Sequence record: NC_054916.1
Reading direction: 5' to 3' (one strand)
DNA: 64,000 nt
Source: Escherichia phage vB_EcoM-G28
This document shows, piece by piece, positions 12,498-58,969 of the stretch (the stretch's first letter is position 1; the number at the start of each line of letters is the position of its first letter). The position numbers and the translations under genes were made by a program. The notes under the pieces were generated by a model that worked only from the letters and a program-made list of their open reading frames with translations, had not been told where the DNA came from and did no database searches.

Positions 12498-13916
12498 TTA
12501 TGGATAGGTATAGATGATACCAGTTTCTAAAGCAGTTTTATGAATGATGTATCCATTACGCGATTCTTGAACATCAACTTCCGGATAGTCTTTCATCATC
12601 TTCTGAAGGGTGTAACGATGCAGGTAATATTTACTATCTGGATCGTCAGTTTTCCAATCTTTACCTTCTTCAGTCATTTTTTGGATTTCATCCATAACCC
12701 ACCAACCGCACCAGATGTAAGCTGAAGTACGGTGTGGAAGAGGATGAACATAAGGCAATTCACCTTCTGGTTCCGGAGCAACTTTATCAGTCACTTGAAC
12801 TTGACCTGTTGTTTTAACTGTTTTGCTATCATAATCAGTTGCTGCAACGACAGCAGTAACTTCAATAGTTTGACTTCCAACAGATGAGGTATCGACAGTA
12901 TATACGTTAGTTGACCCTTCTACAGGAGAAGAATCTTTCTTCCACGAGTAAGTAATTTGTGCTTCTTCTGGAGCATCCGTAACATTAGCAGTAAATGTAG
13001 CCGAAGCATCTTGCTGAACGTTAATAGAAGGAGGAGTCAATGTAACCTGTGGATTCATTGTCTTCTTATTAACTGTCAATGATACTTCATTAGAAGTAAC
13101 TTCCTTTTCATTGTAATTTTCTGCTGTTACTTGGGCTACGCATTTAATTCTTTTTACTCCACTTGTAGTTGGAGTATAGCTAAATGTAGAGCTAGTTTCT
13201 CCACCAACTTGTGAATCATCTACATACCACTGATACGTAGCAGATGCTCCATCAGGTTGAGAAGCTAAGGCAGCAGTAAATTGAACTGGGGTTCCAATTA
13301 CTCCAGCTGAAGGACTAGCAGGAGTTACTGCCAATGTAGTTGTCTGTGTCTTTTTATTAACAGTCAGTGATACTTCATTAGAAGTAACGGTTTTTTCATC
13401 ATAATTTGTCGCGGTTACTTGAGCTACACACTTGATTTTTTTAACTCCGCTTGCGGCAGGAGTGTAATTGAATGTAGCAGAAGTCGCTTCGTCTACAGGA
13501 GAACTGTCAACGTACCATTGATACGTAGCAGATGCACCTGATGGCTGCGAAGCTAAAGCAGCGGTAAATTTAACAGCTGTTCCAATTACTCCTGCTGGAG
13601 GACTATTGGGAGTTACGGCTAAGGTAGTCGTCTGAGTTTTGTTTTTGACTGTGATAGTTGTAGTAGCTTCTGCTGTTTCAGCATCAGTATCTGGAACTGT
13701 GTTTGTTGCAACTACTTTAATAGTCTTTTGACCGGCAGGTCCTTTTAGTACATAACTAAAAGTTGCTTCAGCTCCATCCTGTGGAACATCGTCTACAGTC
13801 CAAGCATAGGTAATAGTTCCACCTCCAGTTTCACCACTGGGTGTAGCAGTAAACTGCTGAGTCTGATCTATAACTCCAGTAGGTGTTTTAGGAGTTATAT
13901 CAACTGTAAAAGCCAT
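12498..13916 (-). CDS. hoc: Hoc (highly immunogenic outer capsid protein), extended to 472 aa
   Basis: Ig-like domain repeats plus C-terminal capsid-binding region; T4 Hoc is 376 aa as I recall. Confidence 0.85.
   Translation of the reverse strand: MAFTVDITPKTPTGVIDQTQQFTATPSGETGGGTITYAWTVDDVPQDGAEATFSYVLKGPAGQKTIKVVATNTVPDTDAETAEATTTITVKNKTQTTTLAVTPNSPPAGVIGTAVKFTAALASQPSGASATYQWYVDSSPVDEATSATFNYTPAASGVKKIKCVAQVTATNYDEKTVTSNEVSLTVNKKTQTTTLAVTPASPSAGVIGTPVQFTAALASQPDGASATYQWYVDDSQVGGETSSTFSYTPTTSGVKRIKCVAQVTAENYNEKEVTSNEVSLTVNKKTMNPQVTLTPPSINVQQDASATFTANVTDAPEEAQITYSWKKDSSPVEGSTNVYTVDTSSVGSQTIEVTAVVAATDYDSKTVKTTGQVQVTDKVAPEPEGELPYVHPLPHRTSAYIWCGWWVMDEIQKMTEEGKDWKTDDPDSKYYLHRYTLQKMMKDYPEVDVQESRNGYIIHKTALETGIIYTYP
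13064..13640 (-). repeat. Tandem, diverged duplication of a ~96-codon Ig-like domain inside hoc
   Basis: Two consecutive protein blocks KTQTTTLAVTP...SNEVSLTVNK are near-identical; the DNA copies are diverged. Confidence 0.75.
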
Positions 13917-26002: not shown

Positions 26003-26006
26003 CAAT

Positions 26007-26024
26007 GGGGACCGAAAGGTCCCC
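26007..26024. terminator. Bidirectional stem-loop (GAAA loop) between gene 54 and the convergent early operon
   Basis: ggggacc-gaaa-ggtcccc followed by a T run. Confidence 0.6.
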
Positions 26025-26030
26025 ATATTT

Positions 26031-26321
26031 TTATTTACGGAATGAAATAAAAGCAGCAACTGAAGCAACTAAACTGTCTTCAATATAAACTTCAATTTTT
26101 ACCGGAGCTTCTGACTCAAATTTACCTGTTACTACACCTTGGAAAATGCTTTCAGTCTGTTCTGGCTTTGAAAAATTTTCAGAAGGAAAAATTCCGAACT
26201 TTTTATCTGTTCCAAAAATTTTGATAAATTCATCGTAAACCGCTTCATTAAAAGCGTTATCAGCAGGAATAACGCCTTCAACTACGAGTTCTTGACCTAA
26301 AAAGCGCAAAGAAGATTTCAT
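26031..26321 (-). CDS. Hypothetical early protein (T4 alt.-3 position)
   Basis: 96-aa ORF with its own early promoter module. Confidence 0.6.
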   Translation of the reverse strand: MKSSLRFLGQELVVEGVIPADNAFNEAVYDEFIKIFGTDKKFGIFPSENFSKPEQTESIFQGVVTGKFESEAPVKIEVYIEDSLVASVAAFISFRK

Positions 26322-26328
26322 TTTGTGT

Positions 26329-26382
26329 TCCTCATGTTATGTCAGTAAGATTATTATAACACAACACGAGGGACTTGTAAAC
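26329..26382 (-). promoter_or_regulatory. Early promoter plus leader module (54 bp) identical to the one upstream of alc
   Basis: Minus strand carries GTTTACA, a 17-nt spacer, TATAAT and a GAGGA Shine-Dalgarno; same 54-mer at 41844..41897 and 42195..42248. Confidence 0.6.
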
Positions 26383-28439
26383 TATATTTTGAACTTTTTA
26401 GACATTTCGTTGATGTTAACCAAAGAAGCCAAGATTTGAGAAACTTCGTTTTCCTCTTCTTTTGATTCTTCTACAAGGAATTGATTAAATCCAGCCATTG
26501 GACGAACTTCACCAGTTTCCATTAGATGGTCGCCATCATATACCGATTCTTCTAACTGTTCAGAAGGAGGAACGATTGTGCCTTCGATTAGATACTTGTT
26601 ATAAGCAGTTTCTTTCATCATGTACGTACTCACTTTATTAATCTTCAGCAAAATTCCACGCGGTAGAATAACTTCAGCTTCTGATGGAAATCCTGATAAA
26701 TGACCTGGAACGATAACTTTGATTCGCTCAGCTCCTTTAATTACCATACCCGCGCTAGTTTCAGCATCTTCATTGGCATACGTAGAATGACTGCCCATAT
26801 GCATCAAATCTTCAGCATCAACTGAACCTTCTCCTTCACCAGAAAATACTGTGCCGGAATCATCTAGAGCCATATAGTTTTTACCATACTCACCGAAGAT
26901 ATTTGGTTTAAGCGATGTGGATACGAAGTTCTTGAAGTAGAACATTTTATTTTCAATATTATGACGTAAAGTTTTAAAGGTAACTTCTTGTCCACGGTAA
27001 AGTGTAGTTCCTGGAGGAAGAACTGATCCTTTGGCAAAGGCAGAATCCATTGTCTCGATGTGTTTAATAGCTCGTTCCATATATTCTTCACGGGTAGAAT
27101 CCGGTTTACCTAAAAGGAACGAGTTCATTTCAACATATGAATCTGCACAATAATCTTCAATTACATCAGACTCAGCTTGAGTTAATCCTTTTGGAGTTAC
27201 TTCAGTACTTGCATATTCATACGCTTGAGAAGCAGACTCATTAATCAATTTATAAATGCCATTCATGACAAATTGAACAATAGCTACCTTTTCATCTGGT
27301 GTAGCTTTAGAACCTTTAACTAAATCATTGACGATTTTCTTAATAACATCAAAGCTATTAGAAATATTAATGTCAGCAAGATCACTTAAAATTTTATCAG
27401 TTTTATAATCAAAAAATTCTTTATTCTTTAAATATTCTTGAGAACCTTGATATGATATATCGCTCTGTAACTTGATAGATGGATCACGTAAACGCGCATG
27501 AGCCAATGCAATATGATTTCGGAAGCTTTCTAATTCATAATCGCTAGATTTAAAACGGGAAGCACTTCTCATACCACCGATAGCTCCTTTGCTGAAGTTT
27601 GAACCAACCTGAATAACGCCAGAGTTCATTGGTCCTTCTGCTTTATATACCGGAACTTTAGATTCAAACTCTTGATATTTCTTAGCAGCGAAGCTATCAC
27701 CCTGAAGTGAAGCATCGACAGTAGAATATTGAGCTTGTGCTGCTAATCGACGACTAATTTTAGTTTTCTGAATAACAGCTTGATCCGTACGCTTATCATT
27801 TTCTAAAGCAATAGAAGCAGCAACAGCAACAGCTTTAGGAACAGCATTGCCTGTTTTAACATCTACATAAACATCACCAACCTTTGATTCAACTTTTGTG
27901 AATAACTCAGTTGAAATAGGAGGTACACCTGGAATGTCTTCTAAATTGGCATTTTTACGGTAAACCATAATATATGCATATTTCTTATCATAGTCCCAGA
28001 TTTCCTTTAAAAGAACATATCGACCTGCTCCTTTAGTACGTACTAAACGGTCGGCAATAACTTGCATTTGACGAGCTGCACCGTTTGTTTTACTCTTTAG
28101 TACGCGGAATAAGCATGCGTCAATTTTGTACTGTTTCATTGTCTGAAGAGCAGTATCAAAAACCGCATTAATAACACCAATTGGATTTCCACCCAAGTTT
28201 TTAAGTTTAACGAGCGATAGTTTCTCATTAACACCTATCATTACGATATGCATCATTTTATCGCCTGGCTTAACGTTTTTATTTGTATCACCGCCAGAGG
28301 TGTATGTACAAAATCTAAATCCAGGAAGCACGCTTTCTTCACCGGCTTGAATAGCAAAAATTTGAGGTATTTTATGCTTAGGATTTAAGTTAACAACCGG
28401 CGCCGAAGCGCCGTCAAATAATTCTGTAATAAGTTCCAT
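26382..28439 (-). CDS. Alt-family mono-ADP-ribosyltransferase, paralog 1
   Basis: 685 aa; C-terminal R-S-E signature (LYRG, FVSTSL, EAEVILPRG); N-terminus MELITELFD shared with the neighbouring paralog. Confidence 0.8.
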   Translation of the reverse strand: MELITELFDGASAPVVNLNPKHKIPQIFAIQAGEESVLPGFRFCTYTSGGDTNKNVKPGDKMMHIVMIGVNEKLSLVKLKNLGGNPIGVINAVFDTALQTMKQYKIDACLFRVLKSKTNGAARQMQVIADRLVRTKGAGRYVLLKEIWDYDKKYAYIMVYRKNANLEDIPGVPPISTELFTKVESKVGDVYVDVKTGNAVPKAVAVAASIALENDKRTDQAVIQKTKISRRLAAQAQYSTVDASLQGDSFAAKKYQEFESKVPVYKAEGPMNSGVIQVGSNFSKGAIGGMRSASRFKSSDYELESFRNHIALAHARLRDPSIKLQSDISYQGSQEYLKNKEFFDYKTDKILSDLADINISNSFDVIKKIVNDLVKGSKATPDEKVAIVQFVMNGIYKLINESASQAYEYASTEVTPKGLTQAESDVIEDYCADSYVEMNSFLLGKPDSTREEYMERAIKHIETMDSAFAKGSVLPPGTTLYRGQEVTFKTLRHNIENKMFYFKNFVSTSLKPNIFGEYGKNYMALDDSGTVFSGEGEGSVDAEDLMHMGSHSTYANEDAETSAGMVIKGAERIKVIVPGHLSGFPSEAEVILPRGILLKINKVSTYMMKETAYNKYLIEGTIVPPSEQLEESVYDGDHLMETGEVRPMAGFNQFLVEESKEEENEVSQILASLVNINEMSKKFKI

Positions 28440-28442
28440 GAT

Positions 28443-30539
28443 TTATCCTTGAACGAACTTGTAAGGCATGTTTGTAATATCTATGCAAGACGCAATAATT
28501 CCAAGAGATGATTCTACTTTCTGTTTAACATTTGATGAAACAAATGATGCAAAGTCAACTCTGTCTTCTATTTCAATATCACCTGTCATTGCAATTACTT
28601 CACCAGTTTCCATTAGACGGTCACCGTCATAAATTACTGATTCGGTGAGTTCTTCCGTAGTCATAACTTCAGCTTGAATGAGTTTTGTATTATTAGATGT
28701 TGTTCCGTCATTATTAGAAGCATCAGTTATTTTATTAACTTTGACCATCAATCCGCGTGGTAGAATAACTTCAGCTTCTGTTGCTATTCCGAGACTTCCT
28801 GGATATACAACATTAACTTTATGAGCTCCATCAATTGCCCATCCTATTTGAACTTTAACGTATTCAGGATTTTCTTTATACGCTCTTATTTCGTTTGGAT
28901 TAATAGTTATTCCTTCTTCATTTTTATCAACTGTTAATTCATTACGAGCTTCTGGTTCTAAAAGACCAATGCCAGCATGTGTAATTCCAAAACGCCCAAA
29001 AATGATAGGAGTTAAAGAAGTAGATACAAAATTTCTGAAATAGAACACTTTATTTTTAACTAGCGCTTCGTATATAGGAGCAGTCATACTTTGAGCACGA
29101 TAAACTGTAATGCTTTCTGGTATACGGTCACCGTTTTCAAAAGCTGAATCTAAGTTATTTATAGCAGATTCAATTTCTTTTTCACTCATTACATCATATC
29201 GTTCTGGATTGTAGCGTCCTAAAAGAAGATTATTGATGTCAGTATATCCTGAACCGCAATACTCTCTAATGCCGCGCTTTTGTGATGGAGTATATTTAGA
29301 ACCATCACGGGCAATAGTAATATCAATCATTGGACCTGCACCAATTCCAGAAAAACTATAAATCATTCGTTTGATGAATTTAGTTTTTGCTGCGTTCCAG
29401 GAATTTTTAGTTATTTCTTCCCAGACTTCATCTGGCTGCCCTTTACGAGTTTTATTATGTTTATCAAGCCAAGTATCTTTATATTCTTCAAAGAATTTAT
29501 TAATAGCTGCTGCATACTTCTCTAAACATTTTATTGAAGTAGTTGGTTCATTTTTGATCGCGTTAAAAATTACGTCTTTAATTTTTTCAGAAACTTCATT
29601 AACCTCACTTTTTGAAAAGAATTTATAATCATAGTGAAGTTCATCTGCAGTTCCTTCGGCAATAATTTTTGCTGCTTTAGTTTTAGAAGCTAATGAATTA
29701 ATTCCAAGCTTCATTTCTTCTGCTTCGGGAATTAAAGGAGCGGTAGCAGGTTTATTGAAATTAGCTGCGGTAGATTCATACTTCTGGAATAATTCGCTTT
29801 CAAATCTAGAAGATTCCAATGACTGACTTTGCGCAATTGCTCTACGGGAAATTTTAACTTTAACGATTACAGCTTGGTCAGAACGTTTATCATTTTCTTG
29901 CGCAATAGATGCAGCAATTGCCTCATTTTTAGTTACTTGAGCTCCAGTATCTTTATTGATATAAACATCGCCGACTTTCGATTCAACTTTAGTAAAGAGC
30001 TCGGTACTAATTTCCGGAACTCCTGGAATGTCTTCTAGTGATACATTTTTGCGATGTATAAGAATATATGCATACTTTTTATCATAATCCCAGAGTTCCT
30101 TAAGAAGGACGTATCTGCCACCTGAACGACTACGGATAAGTCTATCAGCAATAACTTGAATTTGTTGAGCTTGACCAGCAGTTTTAGACTTAAGAATACG
30201 GAGCATACAGGCATCAATTTTATACTGACGCATCGTCTGCATTGCAACAGTAAAAACTGAATTGATATAATTAATTGGGCTTGGACCAAGACCTTTTAAT
30301 TTGGCAATTGAACCTTTAGCAGTTAATGTAAAAGGAACAATATGCATCATTTTATCGCCCATTTTTAAATCGCGATTAGTATCACCTCCAGATGTATAGG
30401 TACATAAACGAAAGCCCGGTTGTTCAATTGCATCATCAACGTGAACTGAAAAAATTTGTGGTATTTTCTTCTTTGGATTTAAGTTTGTAATCGGAAGAGT
30501 AGTATCTTCGTCAAATAATTCTGTAATGAGTTCCATCAT
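28443..30539 (-). CDS. alt: Alt-family mono-ADP-ribosyltransferase, paralog 2 (gene adjacent to the ligase side)
   Basis: 698 aa; C-terminal R-S-E signature (VYRAQ, FVSTSL, EAEVILPRG); position upstream of gene 30 cluster. Confidence 0.8.
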   Translation of the reverse strand: MMELITELFDEDTTLPITNLNPKKKIPQIFSVHVDDAIEQPGFRLCTYTSGGDTNRDLKMGDKMMHIVPFTLTAKGSIAKLKGLGPSPINYINSVFTVAMQTMRQYKIDACMLRILKSKTAGQAQQIQVIADRLIRSRSGGRYVLLKELWDYDKKYAYILIHRKNVSLEDIPGVPEISTELFTKVESKVGDVYINKDTGAQVTKNEAIAASIAQENDKRSDQAVIVKVKISRRAIAQSQSLESSRFESELFQKYESTAANFNKPATAPLIPEAEEMKLGINSLASKTKAAKIIAEGTADELHYDYKFFSKSEVNEVSEKIKDVIFNAIKNEPTTSIKCLEKYAAAINKFFEEYKDTWLDKHNKTRKGQPDEVWEEITKNSWNAAKTKFIKRMIYSFSGIGAGPMIDITIARDGSKYTPSQKRGIREYCGSGYTDINNLLLGRYNPERYDVMSEKEIESAINNLDSAFENGDRIPESITVYRAQSMTAPIYEALVKNKVFYFRNFVSTSLTPIIFGRFGITHAGIGLLEPEARNELTVDKNEEGITINPNEIRAYKENPEYVKVQIGWAIDGAHKVNVVYPGSLGIATEAEVILPRGLMVKVNKITDASNNDGTTSNNTKLIQAEVMTTEELTESVIYDGDRLMETGEVIAMTGDIEIEDRVDFASFVSSNVKQKVESSLGIIASCIDITNMPYKFVQG

Positions 30540-35280: not shown

Positions 35281-35367
35281 TTTATTCTCCTTTGTTTGTG
35301 TAAGATAATACTATCACAAAGGAACCATACTGTAAACAACTTTGTGCAATCTTTGGAAAATAAAAAA

Positions 35368-35385
35368 GGACTCCCGAAGGAGTCC
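35368..35385 (-). terminator. Stem-loop downstream of the basic small ORF
   Basis: ggactcc-cgaa-ggagtcc. Confidence 0.5.
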
Positions 35386-35390
35386 TCAAC

Positions 35391-35567
35391 TTATGCTTTC
35401 TGCTTACCAAAACGAGAAGCATCATCTCGAAGAACCGCACGTGCTCGGCGCATGATCTTCTCAACAGTTTGATTGATACGAGAGTTCGACCCACGCTTGT
35501 AGCCAGCGCGTTTAGAATCACCAACTTTCTTTTCAACTGCTTTCTTTGCTTTAACTTGTTTTGCCAT
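35391..35567 (-). CDS. Small basic protein, about 58 aa from the MAKQVKAKK start (ORF track extends to 35609)
   Basis: Lys/Arg-rich ORF; the internal ATG has a better-placed ribosome-binding site than the track start. Confidence 0.45.
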   Translation of the reverse strand: MAKQVKAKKAVEKKVGDSKRAGYKRGSNSRINQTVEKIMRRARAVLRDDASRFGKQKA

Positions 35568-38859: not shown

Positions 38860-38921
38860 TTCAATTTCCTCATTTGTTTTGGTAGAGCTATAATATCACA
38901 ACTCTACCGTAAAGTAAACCA

Positions 38922-40992: not shown

Positions 40993-41342
40993 TTAGAAAG
41001 GTCCTGGATGTCTTCTGCGAACTTGTTGAAGGAGTTGTTGATTTGTTTTTCAACCAATCCTGGCTTATGAGCCACCACATCCGCCTTCTTTGCATCTTTG
41101 CGCAGTTTTTCATTTTCACGCTCAATAGCAGCAATTGCCTCACGATTTTTATTATTCATCGCATCAATATAATTATACTGAATTCGCAAATTATTTAATG
41201 CTAAAGCGTTTTCATTGGCTGTTTTTGTAATTTCTGCAACAGACGTTTCTAATCTTTCTACCTTATTTTTTAAAATAATAGATGTTCCGCCAAATGCTAT
41301 TACAAGTAATAGCAATCCAGCTGTAAAATTACTTACATGCAT
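40989..41342 (-). CDS. Inner-membrane spanin (T4 pseT.3 equivalent)
   Basis: 117 aa; N-terminal transmembrane helix then predicted coiled coil; directly upstream of the lipoprotein ORF. Confidence 0.7.
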   Translation of the reverse strand: MHVSNFTAGLLLLVIAFGGTSIILKNKVERLETSVAEITKTANENALALNNLRIQYNYIDAMNNKNREAIAAIERENEKLRKDAKKADVVAHKPGLVEKQINNSFNKFAEDIQDLSK

Positions 41343-41839
41343 AAAGTTTTAATAACCTCTATAATATCGTCTTGAGAAAGACCGTTAATTAAAATATGAT
41401 GTTCAGCTGGAGATTTAGAAATTTTAAAGCATGCCTCAACATCTTCTGCCATATCCGATGCACTACGATTTGGATTACTAATTCCAAGACGATGTTTTCC
41501 CGTCAAAGGATTAACGATGATGTAGCATTTACAGCTATTAATGTGAACATTAGGTTGAGTCTGATTAATGAACACATCACAATCATATTTCGCAAGCTGA
41601 TTTTCTAAAAAGACTTTCATCTCCTCAACCGCATCAGGAAGCATATCACGGGCTTGCTCAAGACGACGATTTCGATATTCTTTGATGGTCGTTTTCCGCT
41701 TAACTTGCTTAGCTAAATCTTTCTTAAGATCGGTGATATATCCAACTCGACGATTTCCTTTGAATACAGAAATCCCATCTGTAGTATCACCGTATGCTTC
41801 AACGACCATCTCAGTAGTAATAAGCTGCAAATCCATCAT
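41333..41839 (-). CDS. alc: Alc (host transcription shut-off protein)
   Basis: 168 aa; position between rnlA and the pseT block as in T4. Confidence 0.75.
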   Translation of the reverse strand: MMDLQLITTEMVVEAYGDTTDGISVFKGNRRVGYITDLKKDLAKQVKRKTTIKEYRNRRLEQARDMLPDAVEEMKVFLENQLAKYDCDVFINQTQPNVHINSCKCYIIVNPLTGKHRLGISNPNRSASDMAEDVEACFKISKSPAEHHILINGLSQDDIIEVIKTLCM

Positions 41840-41843
41840 AAAG

Positions 41844-41897
41844 TCCTCATGTTATGTCAGTAAGATTATTATAACACAACACGAGGGACTTGTAAAC
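41844..41897 (-). promoter_or_regulatory. Early promoter plus leader module for alc (copy 1)
   Basis: Identical 54-mer to 26329..26382. Confidence 0.6.
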
Positions 41898-41903
41898 AGC
41901 TTA

Positions 41904-42190
<287 letters not shown>

Positions 42191-42194
42191 AAAG

Positions 42195-42248
42195 TCCTCA
42201 TGTTATGTCAGTAAGATTATTATAACACAACACGAGGGACTTGTAAAC
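42195..42248 (-). promoter_or_regulatory. Early promoter plus leader module, duplicated copy
   Basis: Third identical copy of the 54-mer, inside duplication copy 2. Confidence 0.55.
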
Positions 42249-42251
42249 AGC

Positions 42252-43839
<1,588 letters not shown>

Positions 43840-55096: not shown

Positions 55097-58000
55097 ATGG
55101 CCGAGATTAAAAGAAAGTTCAGAGCAGAAGATGGTCTGGACGCAGGTGGCGATAAAATAATCAACGTAGCTTTAGCTGATCGTGCCGTAGGAACTGACGG
55201 TGTTAACGTTGATTACCTAATTCAAGAAAACACAGTTCAACAATACGATCCAACTCGTGGATATTTAAAAGATTTTGTAATCATTTATGATAACCGCTTT
55301 TGGGCTGCTATAAATGATATTCCAAAACCAGCAGGAGCTTTTAATAGTGTACGCTGGAGAGCATTACGTACTGATGCTAATTGGACAACTGTTTCATCAG
55401 GACCTTATCAATTAAAGTCAGGCGAATCAATTTCAGTTGATACTGCAGCTGGTAATGACATTACATTTACTTTACCATCTTCTCCAATTGATGGAGATAC
55501 TATCGTTCTTCAAGATATTGGTGGAAAACCTGGTGTTAACCAAGTTTTAATTACAGCTCCGGTGCAAAGCATTGTAAATTTTAGAGGTCAGCAAGTACGA
55601 TCAGTACTAATGACTCATCCAAAATCACAGATAGTTTTAATTTTTAGTAATCGTCTGTGGCAAATGTATGTTGCTGATTATAGTAGAGAAGCTGTAGTCG
55701 TAACACCGGCAAGTCTTTATCAGGCGCAATCTAACGATTTTATCGTGCGCAGATTTACTTCTGCTTCAGCAATTAATATTAAACTTCCAAGATTTGCTAA
55801 TCATGGCGATATTATTAATTTCGTTGATTTAGATAAACTGAATCCACTTTATCATACAATTGTTACTACATACGATGAAACTACTTCAATACAAGAAGAT
55901 GGAACTCATTCTATTGAAGGTCGTACATCGATTGATGGTTTCTTAATGTATGATGATAATGAAAAATTGTGGAGATTGTTTGACGGGGATAGTAAAGCAC
56001 GTTTACGTATTATAACAACTAATTCTAGTATTCGTCCAAATGAAGAAGTTATGGTATTTGGAGCAAATAACGGAACAACCCAAACAATTGAACTTCAGCT
56101 TCCAACCGATATTTCCATTGGTGATACTGTTAAAATTTCCATGAATTATATGAGAAAAGGACAAACAGTTAAAATCAAAGCTGCCGGTGAAGATAAAATT
56201 GCTTCTTCAGTTCAATTGCTGCAATTCCCAAAACGTTCAGAGTATCCGCCTGAAACTAAATGGGTGACTGTTCAAGAATTAGTTTTTAACGGCGAAACTA
56301 ATTATGTTCCAGTTTTACAGCTTGCTTACATAGAAGATTCTGATGGAAAATACTGGGTTGTGCAACAAAACGTTCCAACAGTTGAAAGAGTTGATTCTTT
56401 AAATGATTCTACTAGAGCAAGATTAGGCGTAATAGCTTTAGCTACACAAGCTCAAGCAAATGCTGATTTAGAAAATTCTCCGCAAAAAGAATTAGCAATT
56501 ACACCAGAAACATTAGCTAACCGTACTGCTACAGAAACTCGTAGAGGTATCGCAAGAATAGCAACTACTGCCCAAGTGAACCAGGATACTACATTCTCTT
56601 TTGCTGATGATATTATCATCACTCCTAAAAAGCTGAATGAAAGAACTGCTACAGAAACTCGTAGAGGTGTTGCTGAAATTGCGACGCAGCAAGAAACTAA
56701 CGCAGGTACTGATGATACTACAATCATCACTCCTAAAAAGCTTCAAGCTCGACAAGGTTCTGAATCATTATCTGGTATTGTAACCTTTGTATCTACTGCA
56801 GGAGCTACTCCAGCTTCTAGCCGTGAATTAAATGGTACAAACGTTTATAATAAAAACACTAATAATTTAGTTGTTTCGCCTAAAGCTTTGGATCAGTATA
56901 AAGCTACTCCAACCCAACAAGGTGCAGTAATTTTAGCAGTTGAAAGTGAAGTAATTGCTGGACAGAGTCAAGAAGGATGGGCAAATGCGGTTGTAACGCC
57001 AGAAACGTTACATAAAAAGACATCAACTGATGCAAGAATTGGTTTAATTGAAATTGCTACGCAAAGTGAAGTTAATACAGGAACTGATTATACTCGCGCA
57101 GTCACTCCTAAAACTTTAAATGACCGTAAAGCAACTGAAAGTTTAAGTGGTATAGCTGAAATTGCTACGCAAGTTGAATTCGACGCAGGCGTCGACGATA
57201 CTCGTATCTCTACACCATTAAAAATTAAAACCAGATTTAATAGTACTGATCGTACTTCTGTTGTTGCTCTATCTGGATTAGTTGAATCAGGAACTCTCTG
57301 GGACCATTATACCCTTAATATTCTTGAAGCAAATGAGACACAACGTGGTACACTTCGTGTAGCTACACAAGTTGAAGCTGCTGCAGGAACATTAGATAAT
57401 GTTTTAATAACTCCTAAAAAGCTTTTAGGTACTAAATCTACTGAAGCACAGGAAGGCGTTATTAAAGTTGCAACTCAGTCTGAAACTGTAGCTGGAACGT
57501 CAGCAAATACTGCTGTATCTCCAAAAAATTTAAAATGGATTGTGCAGAGTGAACCTACTTGGGCAGCTACTACCCTGGTAAGAGGTTTTGTTAAAACTTC
57601 ATCTGGTTCAATTACATTCGTTGGTAATGATACAGTTGGTTCAACACAGTCATTAGAATTATACGAGAAAAATAGCTATGCAGTATCACCATATGAATTA
57701 AACCGTGTATTAGCAAATTATTTGCCGTTAAAAGCAAAAGCCGTAGATAGTAATTTACTGGATGGTCTAGATTCATCTCAGTTCATTCGTAGGGATATTG
57801 CACAAACGGTTAATGGTTCACTAACCTTAACACAACAAACGAATCTGAGTGCCCCTCTTGTATCATCTAGTACTGCTACGTTTGGTGGATCAGTTTCAGC
57901 AAATAGTACACTAACCATTTCTAATACTGATGGAATAGCAACTCGTCTGATTTTTGAGAAAGGACCTCAAACTGGAACGAACCCGGCTCAAACGATGACA

Positions 58001-58969
58001 GTCAGCGTGTGGGGGAATCAATTTAGTGGGGAATCAAACACAACACGTTCTACCGTATTTGAAGTTAGTGATGAAACATCTTATCACTTTTATTCTCAAC
58101 GCGATAAAGATGGTAATATAGCATTTAGCATTAATGGTACTGTAATGCCAATAAATGTGAATGCTTTAGGTTCTTTGAACGCGAACGGCGTTGCAACATT
58201 TGGTAGTTCAGTTACTGCTAATGGCGAATTTATCAGTAAATCGTCGAATGCTTTTAGAGCAATAAACGGTGATTATGGATTCTTTATTCGTAATGATGCT
58301 GCTAACACCTATTTTATGCTTACTGCATCTGGTGATCAGACTGGTGGATTTAATGGATTACGTCCATTATCAATTAATAATCAATCTGGTCAGGTTACAA
58401 TTGGTGAAAGCTTAATCATTGCCAAAGGTGCTACTATAACTTCAGGTGGTTTAACTGTCAACTCGAGAATTCGTTCTCAAGGTACTAAAACTGCTGACCT
58501 ATACACCCGTGCACCAACATCTGATACTGTAGGATTCTGGTCAATTGACATTAATGATTCAGCTACTTATAACCAGTTCCCGGGTTATTTTAAAATGGTT
58601 GAAAAAACTAATGAAGTGACTGGACTTCCATACTTAGAACGTGGCGAAGAAGTTAAATCTCCTGGTACGCTGACTCAGTTTGGTAACACACTCGATTCGC
58701 TTTACCAAGATTGGATTACTTATCCAACGACCCCAGAAGCGCGCACCACTCGCTGGACGCGTACATGGCAGAAAACCAAAAACTCTTGGTCAAGTTTTGT
58801 TCAGGTATTTGATGGGGGTAACCCTCCTCAGCCATCTGATATCGGTGCTTTACCATCTGATAATGCTATAATGGGGAATCTTACTATTCGTGATTTCTTA
58901 CGAATTGGTAATGTTCGCATTATTCCTGACCCAGTGAATAAAACGGTTAAATTTGAATGGGTTGAATAA
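55097..58969 (+). CDS. 34: Long tail fibre proximal subunit gp34
   Basis: 1290 aa; internal ~40-aa repeats (TPKKL...TATETRRG...IAT); size as T4 gp34. Confidence 0.9.
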   Translation: MAEIKRKFRAEDGLDAGGDKIINVALADRAVGTDGVNVDYLIQENTVQQYDPTRGYLKDFVIIYDNRFWAAINDIPKPAGAFNSVRWRALRTDANWTTVSSGPYQLKSGESISVDTAAGNDITFTLPSSPIDGDTIVLQDIGGKPGVNQVLITAPVQSIVNFRGQQVRSVLMTHPKSQIVLIFSNRLWQMYVADYSREAVVVTPASLYQAQSNDFIVRRFTSASAINIKLPRFANHGDIINFVDLDKLNPLYHTIVTTYDETTSIQEDGTHSIEGRTSIDGFLMYDDNEKLWRLFDGDSKARLRIITTNSSIRPNEEVMVFGANNGTTQTIELQLPTDISIGDTVKISMNYMRKGQTVKIKAAGEDKIASSVQLLQFPKRSEYPPETKWVTVQELVFNGETNYVPVLQLAYIEDSDGKYWVVQQNVPTVERVDSLNDSTRARLGVIALATQAQANADLENSPQKELAITPETLANRTATETRRGIARIATTAQVNQDTTFSFADDIIITPKKLNERTATETRRGVAEIATQQETNAGTDDTTIITPKKLQARQGSESLSGIVTFVSTAGATPASSRELNGTNVYNKNTNNLVVSPKALDQYKATPTQQGAVILAVESEVIAGQSQEGWANAVVTPETLHKKTSTDARIGLIEIATQSEVNTGTDYTRAVTPKTLNDRKATESLSGIAEIATQVEFDAGVDDTRISTPLKIKTRFNSTDRTSVVALSGLVESGTLWDHYTLNILEANETQRGTLRVATQVEAAAGTLDNVLITPKKLLGTKSTEAQEGVIKVATQSETVAGTSANTAVSPKNLKWIVQSEPTWAATTLVRGFVKTSSGSITFVGNDTVGSTQSLELYEKNSYAVSPYELNRVLANYLPLKAKAVDSNLLDGLDSSQFIRRDIAQTVNGSLTLTQQTNLSAPLVSSSTATFGGSVSANSTLTISNTDGIATRLIFEKGPQTGTNPAQTMTVSVWGNQFSGESNTTRSTVFEVSDETSYHFYSQRDKDGNIAFSINGTVMPINVNALGSLNANGVATFGSSVTANGEFISKSSNAFRAINGDYGFFIRNDAANTYFMLTASGDQTGGFNGLRPLSINNQSGQVTIGESLIIAKGATITSGGLTVNSRIRSQGTKTADLYTRAPTSDTVGFWSIDINDSATYNQFPGYFKMVEKTNEVTGLPYLERGEEVKSPGTLTQFGNTLDSLYQDWITYPTTPEARTTRWTRTWQKTKNSWSSFVQVFDGGNPPQPSDIGALPSDNAIMGNLTIRDFLRIGNVRIIPDPVNKTVKFEWVE

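What the first reader, a model, noticed from the sequence alone, without database searches (positions are those of the whole stretch)
26329..26382. Identical 54-bp early promoter and leader cassette upstream of two unrelated early genes
The 54-mer containing -35, -10 and the Shine-Dalgarno site is identical at 26329..26382 (upstream of the alt.-3-position ORF) and 41844..41897 (upstream of alc), with a third copy in the duplication. This is longer than consensus conservation alone would give. It suggests promoter-cassette transfer and provides dispersed homology about 15.5 kb apart that could drive deletions or inversions.
Basis: seen in the sequence. Interest (0 to 1): 0.45.

Follow-up and report, generated by a model that had tools for sequence, protein, structure and literature searches.

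The report
Shared early promoter-hairpin cassette in T4-like phage
Two unrelated early genes of this T4-like phage (alc and alt.-3) are driven by the same 54-base promoter, leader and ribosome-site cassette, which T4 itself and most of its close relatives also carry, and which folds so that the ribosome site should be hidden on any transcript that does not start at the cassette's own promoter.

Summary
A 54-mer is identical at 26329-26382, 41844-41897 and 42195-42248, all on the minus strand, and identity stops sharply at both ends. It is a near-consensus T4-type early promoter (TTTACA, 17 nt, TGT-TATAAT) plus leader and Shine-Dalgarno site. One copy lies upstream of alt.-3 (DUF5498) and one upstream of alc.

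It is not new to this genome. T4 and at least half of 425 Tequatrovirus records carry both copies. In other Tevenvirinae genera the alt.-3 promoter is a different type, so the alc cassette was most likely copied to alt.-3 in the Tequatrovirus ancestor.

The non-consensus parts form a hairpin (-20.4 kcal/mol, z -5.4). It pairs the promoter spacer and -10 with the leader and Shine-Dalgarno site, and the predicted start site lies in the loop. About 26 of 34 distinct alc cassettes from other genera keep this architecture with different stem sequences.

I infer that only self-initiated transcripts are translatable, as at T4 genes e, soc, 49 and I-TevI but with an early promoter.

The repeats are direct, so they cannot cause inversion. 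Essential genes 30 and 31 lie between them in T4, so a deletion should be lethal.

The third copy lies in an exact 351-bp tandem duplication found in no other record. It may be real or an assembly artefact.

The parts
26329..26382 (-). Cassette copy A, upstream of alt.-3. The -35 TTTACA is at 26381-26376 and the extended -10 TGT-TATAAT at 26361-26353. The predicted start site is near 26346 and the SD GAGGA is at 26333-26329. The first base (26382) is the last base of the stop codon of the upstream Alt paralogue.
26330..26371 (-). Hairpin of copy A. The 5' arm (26371-26354) is the promoter spacer plus -10; the 3' arm (26348-26330) is the leader plus SD. The predicted start site lies between the arms.
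   Evidence: dG -20.4, z -5.4; SD-region unpaired probability about 0 in a read-through RNA against 0.3-0.85 in the promoter-initiated RNA
26031..26321 (-). alt.-3 homologue, 96 aa, DUF5498. This is the gene served by copy A.
26005..26026 (.). Bidirectional terminator-like hairpin between gp54 and alt.-3. It closes the one-gene alt.-3 unit.
26382..28439 (-). Second full-length Alt paralogue (685 aa, ADP-ribosyltransferase). It is the upstream gene whose transcripts would read through copy A.
41844..41897 (-). Cassette copy B, upstream of alc. The -35 is at 41896-41891 and the -10 at 41873-41868. The predicted start site is near 41861 and the SD is at 41848-41844.
41333..41839 (-). alc (inhibitor of host transcription, 168 aa). 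This is the gene served by copy B.
42195..42248 (-). Cassette copy C, directly after the intact rnlA. It drives a truncated alc' ORF.
41696..42397 (.). Exact 351-bp tandem duplication (41696-42046 and 42047-42397) with 1 bp of junction microhomology. It contains the 5' 144 nt of alc, the cassette and the last 146 nt of rnlA. The junction is contiguous in none of the phage records listed.
41999..42190 (-). alc' ORF created by the duplication: 63 aa, with residues 2-48 matching Pfam ALC.
42252..43412 (-). rnlA (RNA ligase 1), as the mechanical ORF from a GTG. The T4-like start MQELF... is 12 codons in. It is the upstream gene whose transcripts would read through copies C and B. No terminator-like site lies between it and alc.

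Best explanation
The 54-mer is a complete T4-type immediate-early expression cassette. It holds a -35 GTTTACA, a 17-nt spacer, an extended -10 TGT-TATAAT, a start site about 7 nt downstream, a 13-nt leader and the GAGGA ribosome-binding site.

The same cassette serves alc and alt.-3 because the alc version was copied onto the alt.-3 promoter by ectopic recombination or gene conversion. The exchange was bounded by the shared GTTTACA and AACATGAGGA blocks. It happened in an ancestor of Tequatrovirus, and both copies have been kept since, in T4 as well.

The parts that are not promoter consensus are constrained by a hairpin. The promoter spacer and -10 (cassette positions 12-29) pair with the leader and Shine-Dalgarno site (35-53). 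A transcript that arrives from upstream (rnlA, or the Alt paralogue) contains both arms and buries the ribosome site. A transcript that starts at the cassette's own promoter begins in the loop, lacks the 5' arm and is translatable. This would tie Alc and Alt.-3 synthesis to the short period when early promoters fire.

What is shown: the repeat, the promoter match, its distribution among relatives, the predicted hairpin and its co-variation between genera. What is inferred: the start site, the translational gating and the direction of copying.

The third copy is a passenger in an unrelated 351-bp tandem duplication.
For: - Repeat and promoter. Baseline of the other early promoters in the window: 18-30 of 54 identical.
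- Age: T4 has both copies. Both read TATAGTAGT where this window has TATAATAAT, and they differ from each other at one position. There are 425 phage records with 640 places. In IMG/VR and metagenome scans every copy lies upstream of alc or alt.-3, never at a third locus.
- Direction of copying: alt.-3 promoters of Mosigvirus, Dhakavirus, Karamvirus, Gelderlandvirus and Gaprivervirus lack the anti-SD arm (dG -7 to -11, z about 0 to -1.4). alc promoters of Gelderland-, Karam-, Roskilde-, Jiaoda-, Dhaka- and Winklervirus have it (dG -13 to -25, z -2.7 to -5.9).
- Hairpin: dG -20.4 kcal/mol, z -5.4.
- Co-variation: about 26 of 34 distinct alc cassettes pair the SD with the spacer, using different stem sequences, for example CTCCATTTGGTT/AACCAAATGGAG, CCTCTCGTTTTTG/CAAAAACGAGAGG and TCCCATTTTGTT/AACAAAATGGGG. 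Cognate folds average -20.0 kcal/mol, against -11.7 (sd 4.1) for chimeras of non-cognate halves.
- SD accessibility: the unpaired probability of the SD region is about 0 in read-through RNA and 0.3-0.99 in promoter-initiated RNA.
- No terminator-like site lies between rnlA and alc, so read-through is expected.
- Precedent: T4 e, soc, 49 and I-TevI use a TIR-sequestering helix with a promoter inside it (PMC3014915).
- Further exchange between the same loci: in VR5 the 3' 29 nt of the two cassettes are identical.
Against: - No transcript 5' ends or translation data for these sites could be retrieved. The T4 dRNA-seq tables are not held as text.
- Sense and antisense folds are equally stable on average across genera (-20.0 against -20.2). 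The family-wide data therefore do not separate an RNA hairpin from a DNA palindrome. Only Tequatrovirus, with three G-U pairs, favours the sense RNA, by about 9 kcal/mol.
- Some alc promoters (Mosigvirus, L085) lack the anti-SD arm. Others (L067, L084, L073, and the window promoters at 38918 and 34944) have a hairpin around the -10 that leaves the SD free. Hairpins bracketing the -10 may therefore have a more general role than SD masking.
- The RNAalifold run on a plain MAFFT alignment did not recover the stem, because the arms are out of register. The co-variation rests on my own per-sequence folds.
- Ten Tequatrovirus genomes show no excess within-genome similarity of the two copies (1.6 against 1.76 differences, permutation p 0.5). 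There is thus no evidence of continuing homogenisation. That sample was chosen with a bias.
Confidence: 0.6

Rival explanations
1. The hairpin is a rho-independent terminator for the upstream gene that overlaps the next promoter. This is the composite promoter-terminator (PeSL) arrangement described for T4-type phages. Masking of the SD would be incidental.
For: PeSLs are defined as strong early promoters plus stem-loops that act as terminators (PMC2839356, PMC4122927). The GenBank record of phage ASO78A annotates exactly this stem-loop as a WebGeSTer 'rho-independent terminator' overlapping a 'T4 early promoter'.
Against: No U-tract follows the stem: GAGGAACACAAAAUG at alt.-3, GAGGACUUUAUG at alc, and A-rich spacers in the other genera. 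The terminator scan found none at either site, while it did find the real bidirectional terminator at 26005-26026. The 3' arm ends at the SD in about 26 of 34 cassettes, which a terminator has no reason to do.
Confidence: 0.12
2. The inverted repeat acts at the DNA level. It could be an operator for a dimeric protein, for example one involved in shutting off early promoters, or a cruciform that presents the -10 region. The RNA structure would be irrelevant.
For: Sense and antisense strands fold equally well on average across genera. Several early promoters carry inverted repeats centred on the -10 that do not include the SD (window 38918 and 34944, and L067, L084, L073). The mechanism of early-promoter shut-off is described as not completely understood (PMC3014915).
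Against: Stem sequences differ almost completely between genera while complementarity is kept. That fits base pairing better than recognition by a conserved protein. In Tequatrovirus three G-T juxtapositions weaken a DNA cruciform and the antisense fold by about 9 kcal/mol. The 3' arm ends consistently in the SD.
Confidence: 0.13
3. The two copies are alike only because each is independently selected to be an optimal promoter and leader. This would be convergence, with no transfer and no shared origin.
For: T4 early promoters share an extended consensus (PMC2988021). Both genes are early genes.
Against: The 17-nt spacer and 13-nt leader are not consensus positions, yet they are identical. The other early promoters in the same window share only 33-56% of positions. 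The alt.-3 promoters of five other genera work with a quite different spacer. The same A/G polymorphisms at positions 29 and 32 segregate at both loci.
Confidence: 0.03
4. The third copy, with the 351-bp tandem duplication, is an assembly or circularisation artefact and not part of the phage genome. It could be an untrimmed terminal overlap of a circularly permuted assembly that was later rotated.
For: The two units are 100% identical over 351 bp. Their arbitrary end points lie inside coding sequence, with only 1 bp of microhomology. In every record listed the two halves of the junction map about 351 bp apart, so none has it contiguous. The 30 best relatives span the region in 1,050 bp instead of 1,401 bp.
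Against: A real recent duplication would look the same. It leaves rnlA and alc intact, so it would be tolerated. N-terminal alc fragments next to a full alc do exist in nature, in Gaprivervirus SP18 and VR26-type phages. No reads are available to decide.
Confidence: 0.45

Closest known systems
PeSL (promoter-early stem-loop) regulatory cassettes of T4-type phages (Arbiol et al. 2010, PMC2839356; Comeau et al. 2014, PMC4122927)
   Same: Both are compact intergenic cassettes with a strong sigma-70-type early promoter, a stem-loop, an SD and a start codon. The PST/T4 PeSL consensus TTTACW-N17-TAYWAT fits this cassette. Dispersed copies serve as short homologies for recombination. Crossovers mapped between the -10 and the SD or ATG in PeSL mini-circles match the exchange zone seen in VR5.
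   Different: Here the stem-loop is not upstream of the promoter and has no U-tract: it spans the -10 and ends in the SD. There are only two loci, 13-15 kb apart with essential genes between them, rather than clusters flanking dispensable ORFans in hyperplastic regions. The held text of the PeSL papers does not mention alc, alt or rnlA.
TIR-sequestering hairpins with an internal promoter at T4 genes e, soc, 49 and I-TevI (reviewed in PMC3014915)
   Same: The SD is paired in long transcripts coming from upstream. A proximal promoter lies in the DNA that encodes the 5' strand, so its own transcripts lack that strand and are translated (compared).
   Different: The known cases use late promoters (TATAAATA) and delay translation until late infection. 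Here the internal promoter is a sigma-70 early promoter, so the predicted effect is the reverse: translation only while early promoters fire. The function here is predicted, not tested.
T4 early promoters (consensus GTTTAC-N14-gtggTAttaT; Miller et al. 2003, as cited in the ASO78A record and in PMC2988021)
   Same: It has the GTTTAC -35, a 17-nt spacer, TGn, a -10 and an A-rich upstream region at copy A. Two related GenBank records annotate it as a predicted early promoter.
   Different: Identity extends through the non-consensus spacer and 24 nt downstream of the -10. The region upstream of -35, where a UP element would lie, is not shared between the copies.

Membership tests
T4-type early (sigma-70) promoter | A -35 GTTTAC/TTTACA, a spacer of about 17 nt, a TGn extended -10 and a TATAAT-like -10 | tested here: met
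   TTTACA-17-TATAAT, 11 of 12, with TG present, at all three copies
T4-type early (sigma-70) promoter | Transcription starts there immediately after infection, with no phage factors needed | not testable with these tools
   No TSS table could be retrieved. Only predicted-promoter annotations exist in related records.
T4-type early (sigma-70) promoter | An A/T-rich UP element upstream of -35 | tested here: inconclusive
   Copy A is preceded by AAAAAGTTCAAAATATA and copy B by CCAGAAGGATACTAAGCT. This region is not part of the repeat.
PeSL cassette | An early promoter followed by an SD and the start codon of the downstream ORF, all in one short intergenic block | tested here: met
   The cassette fills the whole 57-60 nt gap between the upstream stop codon and the downstream ATG
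PeSL cassette | A stem-loop that acts as a transcription terminator, placed adjacent to (upstream of) the promoter | tested here: not met
   The stem-loop overlaps the -10 and the SD, has no U-tract, and was not called by the terminator scan. One related record does call it a terminator with WebGeSTer.
PeSL cassette | Many copies clustered in hyperplastic regions, next to insertions, deletions or replacements between close relatives | tested here: not met
   There are only two loci, found at the same two gene junctions in every genome examined. The T4 alt.-1/alt.-2 deletion ends about 20 nt outside the cassette.
PeSL cassette | Recombination between copies (mini-circles, module exchange) | tested here: inconclusive
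   Comparative traces of exchange between the two cassettes exist: the Tequatrovirus full copy, the VR5 3' half, and Mosigvirus shared blocks.
TIR-sequestering hairpin with internal promoter (T4 e/soc/49/I-TevI type) | The SD and/or AUG are paired in transcripts coming from upstream | tested here: met
   This is a prediction only. The SD region is paired with probability of about 1 in the read-through RNA. The pairing is kept with co-varying stems in about 26 of 34 alc cassettes.
TIR-sequestering hairpin with internal promoter (T4 e/soc/49/I-TevI type) | The proximal promoter is placed so that its transcripts lack the 5' strand of the helix | tested here: met
   The -10 lies in the 5' arm and loop, and the predicted +1 (cassette position about 37) lies at the loop/3'-arm boundary. 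The self-initiated RNA leaves the SD unpaired in the MFE structure.
TIR-sequestering hairpin with internal promoter (T4 e/soc/49/I-TevI type) | The internal promoter is a late promoter (TATAAATA), which delays translation to late infection | tested here: not met
   The internal promoter is a sigma-70 early promoter
TIR-sequestering hairpin with internal promoter (T4 e/soc/49/I-TevI type) | A measured drop in translation from long transcripts | not testable with these tools
   Needs reporter fusions or ribosome profiling

The most novel reading that the evidence does not exclude
Across Tevenvirinae, alc carries an early promoter built into a hairpin that masks its own ribosome-binding site. This would be an 'own-promoter-only' translation gate: the mirror image of the late-gene gates at e, soc, 49 and I-TevI, restricting Alc synthesis to the first minutes of infection. 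The gate would also be a mobile unit. It has been exchanged between the alc and alt.-3 loci at least twice independently: the full cassette in Tequatrovirus, the 3' half in VR5, and possibly the reverse direction in Mosigvirus. I found no description of either point in the literature I could search.
Probability: 0.3. Interest if true: 0.55.

Novelty: new member of a known kind. Interest (0 to 1): 0.35.

Why it matters
The repeat is an ordinary, conserved feature of T4 and its close relatives. It is not a rearrangement hazard and not a recent event.

Its value is as a clean natural example of two things. First, a whole promoter, leader and ribosome-site unit was copied from one gene to another inside a phage genome, and the donor and recipient can be identified by outgroup comparison. 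Second, an early promoter is embedded in a hairpin that should make the downstream gene translatable only from its own transcripts. If confirmed, the second point would add an early-gene counterpart to the classic late-gene translational gates of T4. It would also help explain how Alc, a protein that shuts down host transcription, is limited to the start of infection.

The cassette is also a compact, portable regulatory part: 54 nt give a strong promoter, insulation from upstream transcription and an RBS.

Tried and rejected
1. RNAalifold on a plain MAFFT alignment of eight alc cassettes recovered only 5 pairs, because the arms are out of register between genera. I used per-sequence folds and a cognate-versus-chimera control instead.
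2. The sense-versus-antisense energy comparison, meant to decide between RNA and DNA, was inconclusive family-wide.
3. My ungapped walk counting G-T against A-C juxtapositions was too noisy to use.
4. The test for within-genome homogenisation of the two copies in ten Tequatrovirus genomes was negative (p 0.5). The sample is small and was biased towards TATAAT-type hits.
5. The coordinate guess for the second locus of phage ZCEC15 hit the wrong region.
6. IMG/VR and metagenome pattern scans gave only 5 and 9 loci, so there is no large population sample.
7. Miller et al. 2003 (PMC150520) is not held. The T4 dRNA-seq TSS tables are not held as text. Two T4 omics papers say nothing about these promoters, and a literature search for an alc promoter hairpin found nothing relevant.
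8. Rfam has no family for the hairpin.
9. I considered and rejected inversion (the repeats are direct) and the idea that the cassette mediated either the 351-bp duplication or the T4 alt.-1/alt.-2 deletion. The junctions of both lie outside the cassette.

Full report
**Observation.** All genes concerned are on the minus strand. In sense, the repeat reads GTTTACAAGTCCCTCGTGTTGTGTTATAATAATCTTACTGACATAACATGAGGA. It occurs without mismatch at 26329-26382, 41844-41897 and 42195-42248, and none is expected by chance. Identity stops abruptly at both ends. Copy A fills the gap between the stop codon of a 685-aa Alt paralogue (26382-28439) and the ATG of a 96-aa ORF (26031-26321). That ORF is the alt.-3 homologue (DUF5498). 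Copy B fills the gap between rnlA and alc (41333-41839). Copy C lies in an exact 351-bp tandem duplication, 41696-42046 and 42047-42397. The consensus scan scores the cassette as the best sigma-70 site in each region: TTTACA-17-TATAAT, 11 of 12, with TG. The three other GTTTAC-type early promoters in the window share only 18-30 of 54 positions with it.

**What the window is, and how old the repeat is.** The window is a Tequatrovirus, 97-98.5% identical to many T4-like coliphages, with no identical record. The 54-mer matches 425 phage records at 640 places. T4 has both copies. Both read TATAGTAGT where this window has TATAATAAT, and they differ from each other only at position 40. In IMG/VR and metagenome scans every copy found lies upstream of alc or alt.-3, never elsewhere. 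In ten genomes where I could read both copies they differ by 0-4 nt. No difference is fixed between the loci, and the same A/G polymorphisms at positions 29 and 32 occur at both loci. Within-genome similarity is no higher than between-genome similarity (1.6 against 1.76 differences, p 0.5). So the perfect identity in this window is one state of a shared polymorphism in an old duplicated element, not a recent event.

**Direction of the transfer.** I fetched the alc and alt.-3 upstream regions from other Tevenvirinae genera. Outside Tequatrovirus the alt.-3 promoter has a different spacer with a short internal palindrome, for example GTTTACACGCACATGGAAGTGTGTTACTAT, and nothing complementary to the SD. 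I saw this in Karam-, Dhaka-, Gapriver-, Mosig- and Gelderlandvirus (dG -7 to -11 kcal/mol, z near 0). The alc promoter has an anti-SD arm directly after the -35 in Gelderland-, Karam-, Roskilde-, Jiaoda-, Dhaka- and Winklervirus, and in further IMG/VR genomes. The Tequatrovirus alt.-3 promoter is therefore the derived one, and the simplest history is a copy of the alc cassette onto alt.-3. The shared end blocks GTTTACA and AACATGAGGA are present in both promoter types and would have provided the short homologies.

Two further traces of exchange between the same loci exist. In phage VR5 the last 29 nt before the ATG (CCTTACACAAACATGAGGAGAACATT) are identical in its alc and alt.-3 cassettes, whereas Dhakavirus alc differs there. 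In Mosigvirus the alc promoter lacks the anti-SD arm and shares GTTTACAAACAC and ATCAACAACAYGAGGA with its alt.-3 promoter. The Mosigvirus case is suggestive only.

**The hairpin.** Positions 12-29 (spacer plus -10) pair with positions 35-53 (leader plus SD). The energy is -20.4 kcal/mol and z is -5.4 for the 54-mer. With flanks the values are -21.4 and -26.1 kcal/mol. With the usual distance of about 7 nt from the -10, the start site (about position 37) falls at the loop/3'-arm boundary. An RNA that starts upstream has the SD region paired with probability of about 1. An RNA that starts at the cassette promoter leaves it open, with unpaired probability 0.3-0.99 and unpaired in the MFE structure.

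About 26 of 34 distinct alc cassettes from other genera have the same layout with different stem sequences. In one lineage the SD itself changes to GGGGA and the anti-SD changes with it. Cognate folds average -20.0 kcal/mol, against -11.7 (sd 4.1) for chimeras made of non-cognate halves. This co-variation is the main evidence that the pairing is selected. It also explains why the spacer and leader, normally free to vary, are conserved. Rfam holds no such family.

**Mechanism proposed, and its limits.** I infer a translational gate of the kind documented for T4 e, soc, 49 and I-TevI, where long transcripts bury the TIR and a promoter inside the hairpin DNA gives translatable RNA (PMC3014915). 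Here the internal promoter is an early promoter, so the gate would confine Alc and Alt.-3 synthesis to the period when early promoters fire. No terminator-like site separates rnlA from alc, so read-through RNA is expected.

There are four limits.
- I found no TSS or translation data.
- Family-wide, sense and antisense strands fold equally well. Only the three G-U pairs of Tequatrovirus argue specifically for the sense RNA.
- Some alc promoters lack the arm.
- Several early promoters, including those in this window at 38918 and 34944, have inverted repeats around the -10 that leave the SD free. Such repeats may therefore have a more general role.

One related GenBank record annotates this stem-loop as a terminator. 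There is no U-tract, however, and the scan here does not call it.

**Rearrangement potential.** The copies are direct, so inversion is excluded. In T4 the interval holds alt, gene 30 (DNA ligase), rIII, gene 31, cd, pseT, the spanins and about 20 small ORFs. Genes 30 and 31 are essential (my own knowledge), so a deletion would not survive, and a 15-kb duplication would strain headful packaging. I saw no breakpoint at a cassette. The alc region mapped as one contiguous 1,050-bp stretch in the 30 best relatives. Both cassettes sat at the same two gene junctions in every genome examined. The T4 alt.-1/alt.-2 remnant is a deletion inside the second Alt paralogue that ends about 20 nt upstream of the cassette. 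The 351-bp duplication has its junction inside the alc and rnlA coding sequence. Still, the comparative traces above show that the two cassettes do recombine on an evolutionary timescale. That agrees with the PeSL idea of promoter cassettes as recombination substrates (PMC2839356, PMC4122927).

**The third copy.** The duplication is 100% identical over 351 bp and has 1 bp of junction microhomology. It leaves rnlA and alc intact and creates a 63-aa Alc N-terminal ORF behind its own promoter copy. In every record listed the two halves of the junction map about 351 bp apart. It is either a very recent tandem duplication or an untrimmed assembly overlap. Reads or PCR are needed to decide.

**Comparison with the known, and verdict.** The element is a T4-type early promoter: the sequence criteria are met and the start site is untested. 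It resembles a PeSL cassette in composition and in acting as dispersed homology. It fails the PeSL criteria of a terminator stem-loop upstream of the promoter and of clustering in hyperplastic regions. It works like the e/soc/49/I-TevI gates but with an early instead of a late promoter. I file it as a new member of known kinds. The more novel reading is a conserved early-promoter translation gate that has moved between two loci repeatedly. It is not excluded and is testable.

Noticed in passing
window 41696-42397: An exact 351-bp tandem duplication with 1 bp of junction microhomology. It duplicates the 5' end of alc, the promoter cassette and the 3' end of rnlA, and creates a 63-aa Alc N-terminal ORF (41999-42190, minus strand). 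In every phage record listed the two halves of the junction map about 351 bp apart. It may be a recent real event or a circularisation artefact.
   Followed up: partly
window 26382-28439 and 28443-30539 (minus strand): Two full-length Alt-type ADP-ribosyltransferase paralogues lie in tandem (685 and 698 aa). The T4 genes alt.-1 and alt.-2 correspond to the first 342 nt or so of the second paralogue, joined by a deletion to its last few codons.
   Followed up: partly
window 38918-38856 and 34944-34877 (minus strand): Two other GTTTAC-type early promoters also carry inverted repeats bracketing the -10: GGTAGAG...CTCTACC (dG -16.3, z -3.5) and GGTACAGG...CCTGTACC (dG -19.4, z -3.8). These do not include the SD. 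Hairpins around the -10 may be a general trait of T4-type early promoters.
   Followed up: partly
window 12498-13916 (minus strand), repeat 13059-13634: A 472-aa ORF with PKD/Ig-like domains and an internal 288-bp tandem repeat (76% identical units). It looks like a Hoc-type capsid decoration protein with one 96-aa domain more than the 376-aa T4 Hoc; that T4 length is from my own knowledge.
   Followed up: partly
L032 (Shigella phage SP18) 157-390; L058, L059, L086: Gaprivervirus phages of the SP18/VR26 type carry a diverged N-terminal Alc fragment gene (alcb, 77 aa) between rnlA and the full alc. It is preceded by a terminator instead of a GTTTAC promoter. This is a natural parallel to the alc' fragment in this window.
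   Followed up: partly
L071 and L094 (phage VR5, IMG/VR contig 2706795356): The last 29 nt before the ATG are identical in the alc and alt.-3 cassettes of VR5, while the 5' halves are of the alc type and the alt.-3 type respectively. The crossover lies inside the cassette, near the -10.
   Followed up: yes
window 26005-26026: A 9-bp GC-rich hairpin with T-runs on both strands lies between gp54 (plus strand) and alt.-3 (minus strand). It looks like a bidirectional terminator that makes alt.-3 a self-contained one-gene unit.
   Followed up: no
window 55097-58969 (plus strand), repeats 56525-57423: A 1,290-aa ORF whose size and position suggest the proximal long tail fibre protein gp34 (not checked). 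It has short diverged internal direct repeats of 33-41 nt (63-85% identical).
   Followed up: no
window 35352-35435 (minus strand): A weak Rfam match to the Rhizobiales sRNA Atu_C8 (31.4 bits against a gathering score of 50, E 0.0066). It is probably chance.
   Followed up: no
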